64,000 bases of DNA from the human T2T-CHM13v2.0 reference genome, Homo sapiens. Made by a program: the position numbers and the translations under genes. This document shows, piece after piece, positions 44,601 to 47,600 of the stretch. Below the pieces are notes generated by a model, which did not search any database, was not told the origin of the DNA, and saw only the letters and a program-made list of their open reading frames with translations. The stretch lies in NCBI RefSeq assembly GCF_009914755.1, contig NC_060940.1. The stretch is one strand, 5' to 3'. Numbering within the stretch: position 1 is the first letter of the stretch; every line of letters begins with the position of its first letter.

Positions 44601-47600
44601 GCTGCCTGTCATCAATAATTCCTTAAACAAGGTCTTTGCTGAATCCCAGGCACCTTGGGATAAAATAGTGATCCACACAGAGGTCTCCCTGCCTTTGTGG
44701 AGCCCACATGGATGTAAATTTGGTTGGCTGAGTGCAACTGAGTTCAGATTTCAGTTAAGTCCCACTGAGTGCCACCTACTTTGCCTTCTCGCCACTCTCC
44801 CGGTGGAGCACCTGACTTCCCCCATGCTGCATTCCCATTTGCCTCCAAGAGGCCTCCGTGAACTTCCTGTGTTCTAAGGACTTTCTGGCCACACAATGAC
44901 TTTGCTAATGGCTATTCCATATGTCAGTGACTCTGGAATTCCTGCCTCATGAAATGAAGCTGAATCTATTTAATTCCCCTAAAAGGACTTCAATGAACCG
45001 GGGCATTAAAGAGACCGCAGATGTGATGCAGCCTCACCAGGTATTTGGCTGCCCTTTGAGTCCTATCCACTTCTTGGGGCCAAGTAAGAAGCCTTCTAGA
45101 TTCATCCTTGTCTTTAGCAGAAAATCCATGAGGCCTGTATCCTCTGATGATTCTCCCAACAAACACTGCTGGCCACCTCCAAGCCAGGAGCTGGGCTTCG
45201 GGATAACGACATAACTGTGAACAAAAAACCCTGACCCCATGGAGGATCCAGTCTGATGGAATTGAGGAGCTAAACTTGGAAAAACCTGGATGCCCTGTAG
45301 AACACTTGAGGGCAGCACTTAAGCTGGACATAATTGTTAAAGAAAAAGGCAACAATCATACCTAACATCAGCTAAGACTTACTATGGGCTTAGCATTTTT
45401 ATGTGGTATCTGAGTTCCCCCACCACCTTGTGAAATGGGTACTTCTATGAAATGCATGGTGCTGGTAAAGAAACAGAGGCTTAGGGAGCTTCAGCAAGAC
45501 ATCCAAGGTCAAGCAGCTAGGAAGTGGCTGGGCCTGGAACTGGGGTCCCTCAGGCTCCAGAGGCATTGCATTGCCCCCACTGCTCCAGAGGCAACAATGC
45601 ATTGCCCCCACTTTATCTTCAATTTATTCCACAAAACATTGACTGCATCCTTGAGGCAGGAATTCCAGAGTCACCGACATATGGAATAGCACATTAGCAA
45701 AGCCATTGCGTGGCCAGAAAGCAGCGTCCTTAGAACACGGGAAGTTCACGGAGGCCTCTTGGAGGCACATGGGAAGGCAGGGCGGGGGGAAGTCAGGTGC
45801 TCCACGGGGAGAGTGGCGAGAAGGCAAAGTAGGTGGCACTCATGGGACTTAGCTGAAATCTGAGCTCAATTGCACTCAGCCAACTAAATATCGTTTCCAA
45901 TGAATACGTGGCAGACAGCTTTGTTAGCTATGAGAGGTACCACTCTCACACCAGCTATTGAGCTTGACATTGCATAATAAATAAGAACCTCTCCTTCTAT
46001 AGCGCTTGCACAGGGAAAGAGTGAGTCAACAGGATGAGAGATTAAAATACCAGGCACAAGATTAATGTTGAGCCCTCTGCAGCAAAATCAACACTGCCAC
46101 CCTGGGAGTCTGCTGCTGAGTTCCCAGAGCAAGAAGGAGATGCATGCAGGAGATGCAGGAAGAGGCCAAACATTCCCTAAACCCACAGCGTTGCCTGAAA
46201 TCTCCATCCCCCAATCTTGAGGGGAGAGAACAACAAACAGACTCTGGCTGGCTTGGCTGGCTTAGCCCTTGGCTGGGTTGCTTGTTATCTCAGTTTGCTT
46301 TTTACAAGAGGAGTTTTTGCCGGTGGTTAAGAGCCCAGACTCTGCAGCCAGGTGCCCTGGGTATGAAACCCTCCTCTGCCACTTGCTAGCTATGTGACCT
46401 TGGGCAAGCTATTTAACCCTCTTGTGCCTTAGGCTCCTCAACCATCAAGTAGGGGCAGTTATGATGCCTGGTTATTGAAGTGGTTAAGTGAGTTTATTAT
46501 GTACCTGGTAAATAGTAGTGTTCAAAATTATCAGTCATTATCATCTATCATAATATTCCAATGTGAAATTAAGAACATATCTAGGACAGGAGCAGTGGTT
46601 CATGCCTGTAATCTCAGCACTTGACCCAGGAGGCCAAGACAGGAGAATCACTTGAGGCCAGGAGTTCGAGCCTGGCCTAGGAAACATAGCAAGACCCCAT
46701 CTCTACAAAAAATAAAATAAAATTTAATTTAAAAATTATCCCGCTTTCCCCTGGTAAATAAAAAATTTTAAAAAATTATCCGGGCATGGTGATATATGCT
46801 TGTAGTACCAGCTACTTGGGAGGCTGAGGCAGGAGGATCACTTGAGCCCAGGAGTTTGAGGCCGCAGTGAGTTCTGATTGCACCACTGCACTCCAGCCTG
46901 GGCAAAAGAGTAAGACCCTGTCTCACACACACAAAAAGAGAACAAATCAAAAAAGATTTATGAAACCTAGTCAGTTCAAGCCTAGCCACCTGGAGTGGAC
47001 TGTTCATTCAAAACTGCAACTGACTCTAAGAGAAGTACTGCAAATCAGAATGAATATAACCACCGTCTTCTCCACACTTGGAGAGGGGGCCTCCAATGTT
47101 CATGTACATAGTTTTAAAACTGGGGGAAAAATACAGGGACTCTGGTTAGAGACATCCCATCACCACCTTCAGCTCTAACTGAACTGTATCAGACCTGGAG
47201 AAGGCTGTAGCTATGTAATGCAAGGAGGAGGGCTGGAGGCCACACCTGTGCAACACACACCCACCTTTCTCACCACAAAGCTTATGCTGTGCAGAACCGA
47301 TTTGAGGCTGTCACTTTGCTCCTCTGGGCCAGTGGCTCCCTTGGCTGGTGGACTCCTCTCACTGTATGCCTCTGACCTCTGTTTCTTGCATAAATGCCTT
47401 TTCTGGTTCTGCAATTTCTTTGGGGTACTTTTCCTGCTGGCTTCATGCTCCCATGTCAAGGTGGCATTTGCTAAAAGCAAGACAGTATCTGGGTCTTCTG
47501 GTTGGGTGATGTAAGATGGGGGGCTTTTATCTATGAGAATTTTCTAAGATTAAAGAGACAAAATTAACTGAGCAGATGTCATCCATTTGCAAGAATCATC

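What the first reader, a model, noticed from the sequence alone, without database searches (positions are those of the whole stretch)
45038..45214. In-frame 177-nt cassette exon held in the loop of the inverted repeat
Seen: good acceptor (ggttttttgttcacag|TTA) and donor (CTG|gtgagg), length 59 codons, no stop, phase 0-0 matching exons 9 and 10. It would insert LCRYPEAQ...RAAKYL between VVRK and [15 protein letters not shown], just before the NBD1 Walker A. It lies entirely between the two arms. Established: flanking inverted repeats can loop out an exon or promote back-splicing. Inference: an RNA-structure switch in which the stem suppresses or circularises an exon likely to disrupt NBD1. An inversion of the spacer would also flip the exon on or off.
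Basis: partly seen in the sequence, partly recalled or inferred. Interest (0 to 1): 0.75.

Follow-up and report, generated by a model that had tools for sequence, protein, structure and literature searches.

The report
Exon-like stretch inside an intronic hairpin loop
An intron of the human transporter gene ABCC12 holds a stretch that looks like an in-frame exon, inside the loop of a long hairpin made by a unique inverted duplication, but nothing available here shows that cells use it.

Summary
The sequence observation is confirmed. On the gene (minus) strand, 45214..45038 is 177 nt and stop-free. It has a strong acceptor and a good donor, and it sits in a phase-0 intron, so inclusion would insert 59 residues between VVRK and [15 protein letters not shown]. 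It lies in the 702-nt spacer of a real inverted repeat. The arms are 44718-44949 and 45652-45889, with 12 substitutions in 230 aligned bases. The genome holds only these two copies. The predicted stem is about 221 bp.

By my scores it is the best false exon in the window; about 0.007 of this quality are expected per 60 kb. Hundreds are still expected genome-wide.

The evidence on use is negative. Its codon usage looks intronic, below all 28 real exons. The peptide has no relative anywhere. Its donor is predicted to sit in a local hairpin. None of the 13 RefSeq transcripts in the hub's table uses it. I found no paper describing it.

Best reading: a chance pseudo-exon in a primate-age inverted duplication, normally skipped. 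The 'structure switch' is untested; only RNA junction reads can decide it.

The parts
45038..45214 (-). Exon-like stretch (pseudo-exon): 177 nt, 59 codons, stop-free in frame 0 and also in frame 1
   Evidence: It is the only intronic pair at its score level in the window. Codon log-odds is -0.137 bits per codon, below all 28 real exons; 30.5% of 5241 intronic stop-free windows score as high or higher.
45215..45240 (-). 3' splice-site region: T-rich tract 45228-45219 and CAG at 45217-45215. A further CAG at 45233-45231 leaves an AG-free zone of only 15 nt (45230-45216), with one plausible branch A at 45232
   Evidence: Sequence read. Acceptor score 12.3 bits, higher than 18 of 28 real acceptors. 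The branch-point reasoning is inference from recalled rules.
45032..45040 (-). 5' splice-site 9-mer CTG|gtgagg (GT at 45037-45036)
   Evidence: It scores 9.3 bits with the recalled matrix (above 20 of 27 real donors) and 6.7 bits with the window-trained matrix (above 5 of 27).
45011..45035 (-). Predicted local hairpin: intron positions +3 to +11 of the donor pair with 45019-45011 (9 bp, 7-nt loop)
   Evidence: in all three local folding windows. Mean P(unpaired) of the 9-mer is 0.14 with and without the arms. Prediction only.
45652..45889 (.). Inverted-repeat arm upstream of the pseudo-exon in the direction of transcription (238 nt)
   Evidence: 221 of its 238 bases pair with the other arm in the minimum-energy fold.
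44718..44949 (.). Inverted-repeat arm downstream of the pseudo-exon (232 nt)
   Evidence: The genome holds only these two copies.
44950..45651 (.). 702-nt spacer, which forms the loop of the hairpin. The acceptor lies 437 nt after the upstream arm and the donor 88 nt before the downstream arm
   Evidence: The 44950-45330 part has no other copy in the genome.
44993..45355 (-). 121-codon stop-free run that contains the pseudo-exon. Its ATG-started part is the 113-aa ORF P0002, called by gene finders on contigs carrying this same DNA
47265..47543 (-). Upstream ABCC12 coding exon, ending ...SISFVVRK
   Evidence: Hub annotation; translation
43019..43090 (-). Downstream ABCC12 coding exon, starting [15 protein letters not shown] (Walker A of NBD1)
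   Evidence: Hub annotation; translation

Best explanation
This is a chance pseudo-exon that happens to lie in the loop of a young, unique, local inverted duplication inside the ABCC12 intron that precedes the Walker A exon.

Shown: the splice-site-like signals, the open frame, the phase, the two arms and their uniqueness, and the predicted stem.

Inferred:
1. About 235 bp was copied in inverted orientation about 700 bp away, in the primate lineage. The arms differ by K2P 0.054. Using recalled substitution rates and assuming no gene conversion between the arms, that is about 10-30 million years.
2. In the pre-mRNA the arms can form a stem of about 221 bp that closes a loop of about 700 nt.
3. 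The spliceosome normally joins 47265 directly to 43090 and skips the stretch. Four things favour skipping: the 5' splice site sits in a local hairpin, the branch site is weak and constrained, the body looks like intron, and the stem (when it forms) loops the stretch out and brings the true sites about 1.2 kb closer.
4. At most, trace inclusion or a trace 177-nt back-spliced circle is made where the gene is transcribed.

No selected function is implied for either the exon-like stretch or the stem.
For: - The signals are real but expected at genome scale. About 0.007 such in-frame open pairs occur per 60 kb of intron-like sequence, so hundreds are expected over all human introns (my arithmetic).
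- Pseudo-exons are said to outnumber real exons about tenfold, and their flanks are reported to tend to form double strands that enclose them (PMC1935003, introduction passages).
- Codon usage is -0.137 bits per codon, below all 28 real exons (-0.024 to 0.395) and typical of intronic stop-free windows (mean -0.188, sd 0.099).
- Two of the three frames are open, as expected from composition rather than coding.
- The peptide has 9 Arg and 3 Trp in 59 residues and no Pfam match. It has no paralogue in the genome at E <= 1. Its only match among 5.8 billion and 1.84 billion proteins is the ORF of the same DNA.
- None of the 13 RefSeq transcripts in the hub's table has an exon between 43091 and 47264.
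- No paper on an ABCC12 exon, circRNA or editing site here came up in five searches.
- The arms are unique to this locus and have no target-site duplication, so this is a local duplication and not a mobile element.
- The stem energy is -431.7 kcal/mol.
- The donor is predicted to be paired locally.
Against: - Within this window the stretch is an outlier. It is the single best intronic acceptor-donor pair and the only in-frame open one down to thresholds of 8 and 6 bits. Only 1 of 150 simulations produced its like, and the antisense strand has none.
- Both sites score inside the range of real ABCC12 sites.
- The architecture (complementary arms within 88 and 437 nt of usable sites) is the one shown to be sufficient for exon circularisation in minigenes (PMC4201285).
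- ABCC12 is expressed mainly in testis and breast (review PMC3777468), tissues that annotation may sample thinly.
- RefSeq absence is not proof of non-use.
- My splice scores are simple weight matrices. One was trained on only 27-28 sites and one was recalled from memory.
- The protein libraries may hold few mammalian isoform models.
Confidence: 0.65

Rival explanations
1. One reading: a real cassette exon, possibly tissue-restricted, whose inclusion is gated by the stem. With the stem formed the exon is looped out and skipped. With the stem melted, edited or bound, the exon is included and 59 residues are inserted into the turn just before the NBD1 Walker A, giving an altered or inactive transporter.
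For: - Strong core signals, and the frame is kept.
- The stretch lies wholly inside the loop, and the stem is very stable.
- Loop-out skipping is an established principle (recalled; see also PMC1935003).
Against: - It is not in the 13 RefSeq transcripts (hub table).
- Its codon usage is intronic.
- The peptide has no relatives.
- The donor is predicted to be paired locally whatever the arms do (0.14 in both contexts), so the arms would not be the only brake.
- The arms are young while the gene is old, so any switch would be a recent, lineage-specific addition.
- Inserting 59 residues between VVRK and GKILGICG would probably harm NBD1 (inference).
Confidence: 0.1
2. The main product is a 177-nt single-exon circular RNA. 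The stem brings the donor at 45037 next to the acceptor at 45215 and favours back-splicing. The circle would be a non-coding by-product, or possibly functional, in cells that transcribe ABCC12.
For: - Inverted repeats of about 30-40 nt close to the splice sites are sufficient for circularisation in minigenes (PMC4201285). Here the arms are about 230 nt, with 221 predicted pairs, 437 and 88 nt from the sites.
- Both sites score like real sites.
Against: - The same paper reports that not all repeats work and that strengthening the hairpin sometimes strongly inhibited circularisation.
- Circles usually come from exons that are also used in linear mRNA, and this one is not annotated.
- The 5' splice site is predicted to be occluded.
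- No ABCC12 circRNA at this place came up. One search listed 9 papers holding both words; I judged them from the listing only and none concerned this locus by title or abstract start.
Confidence: 0.15
3. The relevant element is the stem, not the exon-like stretch. It would be a long intronic double-stranded RNA that ADAR edits, or that is processed into small RNAs in the germ line. The pseudo-exon would be an unrelated passenger.
For: - About 221 bp of near-perfect duplex, -431.7 kcal/mol.
- It is the most complementary inverted pair in the window, and its arms are not in the hub's list of the window's 20 longest masked repeats, which is only a partial list (together with that list).
- Long duplexes are promiscuous ADAR substrates (recalled knowledge).
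Against: - Editing of such a stem would be an expected side effect, not evidence of function.
- No Rfam family matches in 44700-45900.
- No paper links ABCC12 and RNA editing (0 papers).
- Small-RNA and editing data are out of reach here.
Confidence: 0.08
4. The 1172-bp unit is a non-autonomous DNA transposon with long terminal inverted repeats, and the exon-like stretch is part of its internal sequence.
For: The layout of two long terminal inverted arms around a spacer.
Against: - There is only one locus in the 3.1-Gb genome (the tool warns that its counts are lower bounds).
- No duplicated target site flanks the unit.
- The spacer seems to hold an older dispersed repeat. The resemblance to the MIR family is recalled and untested; the only support is one 53-nt, 83% match on another chromosome.
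Confidence: 0.02

Closest known systems
Intronic pseudo-exons (false exons) whose flanks tend to form double strands that enclose them, as summarised in PMC1935003 (introduction passages)
   Same: It is intronic, of exon-like length, with consensus-like acceptor and donor. It is absent from annotated mRNA, is enclosed by complementary flanks, and has a donor predicted to sit in local structure.
   Different: The enclosing stem is unusually long and nearly perfect (about 221 bp) and comes from a unique inverted duplication. The pseudo-exon also keeps the reading frame without a stop.
Exons circularised through flanking inverted repeats (ZKSCAN1, HIPK3, EPHB4 minigenes; mouse Sry), PMC4201285
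   Same: Inverted complementary sequences lie in the flanks close to an acceptor and a donor, and the arm length far exceeds the 30-40 nt minimum.
   Different: In those cases the repeats are mostly Alu elements and the exons are genuine mRNA exons with observed circles. Here the arms are single-copy, the exon is unannotated, and no circle has been observed.
Exon skipping caused by looping an exon out with an RNA stem (classical minigene experiments; recalled, no paper read here)
   Same: The topology is the same: an exon-like unit sits inside a loop closed by a stem in the intron.
   Different: Those were engineered constructs with shown effects. Here nothing is measured.
Regulated 5' splice-site hairpins (recalled example: the stem at the tau exon 10 donor) and the ATM/CFTR pseudo-exon structures of PMC1935003 (abstract)
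   Same: A predicted 9-bp stem covers intron positions +3 to +11 of the donor.
   Different: It is predicted only, with no probing or mutational data.

Membership tests
Cassette (alternative) exon | Canonical AG...GT borders with a polypyrimidine tract | tested here: met
Cassette (alternative) exon | Transcripts that include it and transcripts that skip it | not testable with these tools
   No human RNA read data are held. The hub's RefSeq table (13 transcripts) shows no exon in 43091-47264. Literature searches found nothing on it.
Cassette (alternative) exon | For a coding cassette: the frame is kept and the sequence looks coding | tested here: inconclusive
   The frame is kept. Codon usage is intron-like, and there is no protein relative.
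Cassette (alternative) exon | Conservation of the splice sites in related species | not testable with these tools
   No other mammalian genome is held (one search states that G000 has no relatives here).
Pseudo-exon | Intronic, exon-sized, flanked by splice-site-like sequences | tested here: met
Pseudo-exon | Not spliced into mature RNA | not testable with these tools
   Only the hub's annotation speaks to this (the stretch is absent from it).
Inverted-repeat-driven circRNA exon | Complementary sequences in both flanks able to pair | tested here: met
   (221 of 238 bases paired; -431.7 kcal/mol)
Inverted-repeat-driven circRNA exon | Back-splice junction observed | not testable with these tools
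   No read data. One search found no report for this locus.
DNA transposon with terminal inverted repeats | Several copies in the genome | tested here: not met
   only the two arms at this locus (the tool states that its counts are lower bounds)
DNA transposon with terminal inverted repeats | Target-site duplication at the ends | tested here: not met
   the flanks ...GGATGTAA| and |ATCGTTTC share nothing
Known RNA family (Rfam) | Match to a covariance model | tested here: not met
   there are 0 matches in 44700-45900. The 5 matches listed lie at 46619-46926; four of them, at 46777-46926, are of the signal-recognition-particle or Alu-derived kind, and the fifth (46619-46654) is a weak match to a phage sRNA model.

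The most novel reading that the evidence does not exclude
A lineage-specific inverted duplication has turned a latent in-frame exon of ABCC12 into a stem-gated unit. In testis, depending on whether the ~221-bp stem forms or is unwound or edited, the unit is skipped, back-spliced into a 177-nt circle, or included. Inclusion would give a transporter with a 59-residue insert in the turn before the NBD1 Walker A. That would be a natural, non-Alu example of an RNA-structure switch born from one datable duplication.
Probability: 0.08. Interest if true: 0.55.

Novelty: new member of a known kind. Interest (0 to 1): 0.22.

Why it matters
If the exon-like stretch is never used, this is one more intronic false exon and of little consequence. 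There is one practical point: it already has good core signals and keeps the frame, so a deep-intronic variant that frees its donor or improves its branch site could activate it. Loss of one arm could do the same. Either change would produce an ABCC12 protein with an insert in NBD1.

If it is used or circularised, it would be a clean natural case in which a single-copy, datable inverted duplication, not a pair of Alu elements, controls the fate of an exon. That would make the effect of stem formation on splice choice easy to test with arm deletions.

Tried and rejected
- Mobile-element origin of the repeat: rejected. Only one locus in the genome and no target-site duplication.
- Duplicated exon of another gene: rejected. 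There is no other DNA copy of 44950-45330. The peptide has no copy in the genome apart from one chance-level match at E 3.6.
- Protein relatives: none. The only match in 5.8 billion proteins (longer lengths searched, 4 candidates) and in 1.84 billion representatives is P0002, the 113-aa ORF of the same DNA. Pfam gave 0 families for P0001 and P0002.
- Rfam: nothing within the repeat unit.
- Tandem Repeats Finder on 44600-46000: one trivial 19-nt row.
- Placing the insertion point on a solved structure: phmmer of the upstream exon's 93 residues against PDB sequences gave 0 matches. The statement that the junction lies in a turn before the Walker A therefore rests on the visible GNVGSGKS motif and on recalled knowledge of the ABC fold.
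- I did not fold the spliced NBD1 with and without the insert, because that needs a sequence joined from separate exons.
- Testing the MIR-like look of 45340-45600: the genome search gave one 53-nt, 83% match on contig 11. A sensitive local BLAST against the rest of the window gave only chance-level hits. The family name stays a recollection.
- Papers: Bera 2002 and Ono 2007 on MRP9 transcripts are not held, and I did not try to open Yabuuchi 2001. These three may describe ABCC12 splice variants that I could not see. PMC8832985 and PMC10412668 mention ABCC12 without bearing on this exon. PMC1890297 only cites Yabuuchi 2001.
- Inversion of the spacer by recombination between the arms: judged unlikely, because the longest exact shared run is 36 nt. 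This was not tested.
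Full report
**What is there**

The window is part of human ABCC12, which is transcribed from the minus strand (hub annotation). On that strand, 45214..45038 is 177 nt. It is preceded by ggttttttgttcacag and followed by gtgagg. It translates without a stop to 59 residues, LCRYPEAQ...RAAKYL.

The coding length from the stop codon up to 43090 is 2565, and up to 47543 it is 2844. Both are divisible by three. The intron 47264..43091 (4174 nt) is therefore phase 0 at both ends, and the flanking exons read ...SISFVVRK | [15 protein letters not shown].... 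Inclusion would keep the frame and place 59 residues directly before the strand that leads into the Walker A motif GNVGSGKS. Only the exon numbering differs: these are the 8th and 9th exons in the window, which is exons 11 and 12 of the 31 in the hub's transcript.

**The inverted repeat**

The arms are 44718-44949 and 45652-45889, with 702 nt between them.
- They differ by 12 substitutions in 230 aligned positions: 9 transitions and 3 transversions, 5 of them in CpG context.
- There are five indels, and K2P is 0.054. BLAST identity counting gaps is 90.8%.
- The longest exact shared run is 36 nt.
- In the 3.1-Gb assembly, each search found only these two copies. The tool warns that its counts are lower bounds.
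- The ends carry no duplicated target site.

This is a local inverted duplication and not a mobile-element family. With recalled primate substitution rates, and assuming no gene conversion between the arms, the divergence corresponds to roughly 10-30 million years. That is an inference.

Folded as RNA, the gene-strand transcript of 44690-45920 has a minimum free energy of -671.2 kcal/mol, against -227.2 for the spacer alone. 221 of the 238 bases of one arm pair with the other arm, and the two arms alone give -431.7 kcal/mol. Among inverted pairs within 5 kb of each other, this is the most complementary in the window. The other pairs are 74-86% complementary and coincide with stretches the hub lists as masked repeats.

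The exon-like stretch lies wholly in the loop, 437 nt after the upstream arm and 88 nt before the downstream arm.

**Is the exon-like stretch more than chance?**

I scored sites with simple weight matrices. The acceptor and one donor matrix were trained on the window's own 28 and 27 annotated sites. A second donor matrix was recalled from memory.

| Measure | Result |
|---|---|
| Acceptor score | 12.3 bits, above 18 of 28 real acceptors |
| Unannotated gene-strand AGs scoring as high (candidate included) | 7 of 4792 |
| Donor score, recalled matrix | 9.3 bits, above 20 of 27 real donors |
| Unannotated GTs scoring as high, recalled matrix | 13 of 3336 |
| Donor score, window-trained matrix | 6.7 bits, above 5 of 27 real donors |
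| Unannotated GTs scoring as high, window-trained matrix | 86 of 3336 |

Pairs of an acceptor and a donor 50-300 nt apart, in introns of the gene strand:

| Thresholds (acceptor/donor, bits) | Intronic pairs | Length divisible by 3 and open in the frame from its first base |
|---|---|---|
| 12.2 / 9.2 (candidate's level) | 1 (the candidate) | 1 (the candidate) |
| 10 / 8 | 6 | 1 (the candidate) |
| 8 / 6 | 29 | 1 (the candidate) |
| 6 / 5 | 167 | 7 |

The antisense strand has 0 pairs at the candidate's level. At 10/8 bits it has 2 pairs, neither of them open. First-order Markov simulations of 60,039 nt gave a mean of 0.007 in-frame open pairs at the candidate's level (1 of 150 simulations). 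At 10/8 bits the mean was 0.127 (18 of 150).

So the stretch is a clear outlier within this window. A rate of about 0.007 per 60 kb still predicts hundreds of such stretches over all human introns (my arithmetic). A scan of very many windows will meet them.

The open frame adds little:
- 9.5% of intronic 177-nt windows are stop-free in a given frame.
- The stretch is open in two of the three frames, with runs of 121 and 94 codons.
- The window holds 30 non-exonic stop-free runs of 121 codons or more.

**Does it look like a used, coding exon?**

No test available here says so.
- Codon log-odds (ABCC12 codons against intronic triplets) is -0.137 bits per codon. That is below all 28 real exons (-0.024 to 0.395, though these were in the training set). 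It is in the middle of 5241 intronic stop-free windows (mean -0.188, sd 0.099; 30.5% score as high or higher).
- The peptide has 9 Arg and 3 Trp in 59 residues.
- It has no Pfam match and no second copy in the genome. The only other row is a chance-level match at E 3.6.
- In 5.8 billion and 1.84 billion predicted proteins it matches only P0002, a 113-residue ORF read straight through the same DNA. Those libraries may hold few mammalian isoform models, so this is weak evidence.
- The DNA of 44950-45330 is single-copy, so it is not a copied exon of another gene.
- A second CAG at 45233-45231 leaves only 15 nt free of AG (45230-45216) before the acceptor. The A at 45232, in a poor context, is then the one plausible branch point (read; the rule is recalled).
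- The donor is predicted to be paired. Intron positions +3 to +11 form a 9-bp hairpin with 45019-45011 in all three local folds.
- The mean unpaired probability of the 9-mer is 0.14, whether or not the arms are present. The arms therefore do not change the local accessibility of either site. For the acceptor region the values are 0.32 with the arms and 0.33 without. Any effect of the arms would be topological.
- The hub's RefSeq table lists 13 transcripts and no exon between 43091 and 47264.

**Literature**

Five full-text searches on ABCC12 gave nothing about this intron. The paired terms were splice variants, transcripts and exons, circRNA, cryptic exon and RNA editing.

For some searches I judged most papers from the listing only. 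I read passages of:
- PMC3777468, a review stating two MRP9 transcripts of 4.5 and 1.3 kb and expression in breast, testis, brain, skeletal muscle and ovary;
- PMC1890297;
- PMC8832985;
- PMC10412668.

The primary papers on MRP9 transcripts were not held, and I did not try to open Yabuuchi 2001. A variant described there would have escaped me.

**How it most likely works**

The best-supported reading is that two unrelated things coincide: a neutral inverted duplication and a chance pseudo-exon. The spliceosome joins 47265 to 43090.

The pseudo-exon is passed over for four reasons. Its donor is sequestered, its branch site is poor, and its body lacks exon character. In addition, the stem, when it forms, loops it out and shortens the effective intron by about 1.2 kb.

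Two points are in print (PMC1935003, introduction passages): that pseudo-exons outnumber real exons by about an order of magnitude, and that their flanks tend to form double strands enclosing them.

The same architecture can also promote back-splicing. Inverted repeats of 30-40 nt next to the splice sites sufficed in minigenes. Not all repeats worked, however, and strengthening the hairpin sometimes strongly inhibited circularisation (PMC4201285, abstract and passages). A trace 177-nt circle is therefore possible, and so is trace inclusion.

I put about 0.65 on 'skipped pseudo-exon, no selected function', 0.15 on a circle as the main product, and 0.10 on a stem-gated cassette exon. The rest goes to readings in which only the stem matters.

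It is not excluded but is unlikely with a longest exact run of 36 nt.

**Comparison with what is known, and novelty**

It works like, and most likely is, an intronic pseudo-exon enclosed by complementary flanks. It has the cis-layout of inverted-repeat-driven circRNA exons but lacks their defining observation, a back-splice junction.

It is not a transposon: copy number and target-site duplication were tested and not met. It matches no Rfam family.

I file it as a new member of a known kind, of low interest as it stands. The unusual points are the length and perfection of a single-copy stem and the frame-keeping, stop-free body.

**What would settle it**

Junction and back-splice reads in testis or breast RNA, trained splice predictors, a primate alignment of the intron, and a minigene with arm deletion and compensation.

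Noticed in passing
window 52049-52359, 54176-54443 and 57463-57827: Masked repeats (hub list) form inverted pairs of 74-78% complementarity. One pair brackets the real exon 52493-52641, and another brackets the real exon 57034-57181. This is the usual layout for repeat-driven exon circularisation of genuine exons.
   Followed up: no
window 17964-18245 and 18754-19086: Another inverted pair of masked repeats, 82-86% complementary and 539-840 nt apart, in an intron.
   Followed up: no
window 46777-46926: Sub-threshold Rfam matches to metazoan SRP RNA (+ strand, 59.9 bits) and to Alu-derived miRNA families. They coincide with masked stretches 46586-46743 and 46797-46943, so an Alu-type repeat lies in the same intron, antisense to ABCC12.
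   Followed up: partly
window about 45340-45600, minus strand: The upstream part of the spacer looks to me like an old MIR-type dispersed repeat. This is recalled and not tested against a repeat library. The only support is one 53-nt, 83% match on another chromosome; the sensitive local search found that same match again and otherwise only chance-level hits. If right, the spacer is old intronic DNA and the arms were added later.
   Followed up: partly
window 45553-45611, minus strand: A short direct duplication with a 31-nt period: the same 14-mer occurs at 45611-45598 and 45580-45567, with 0 expected by chance. Tandem Repeats Finder did not list it.
   Followed up: partly
window 43698, 43931, 47119 and 47245, minus strand: Other strong decoy sites in the same intron: donors-like GTs at 43698 (12.4 bits), 43931 (8.9) and 47245 (8.3), and an acceptor-like AG at 47119 (12.0 bits). 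None forms a 50-300-nt pair at the higher thresholds.
   Followed up: partly
P0002 (window 44993-45355, minus strand): Gene finders have called a 113-aa ORF on 31 unnamed contigs carrying this same DNA. This shows that an intronic stop-free run of human origin is present in large predicted-protein libraries as a 'protein'.
   Followed up: no
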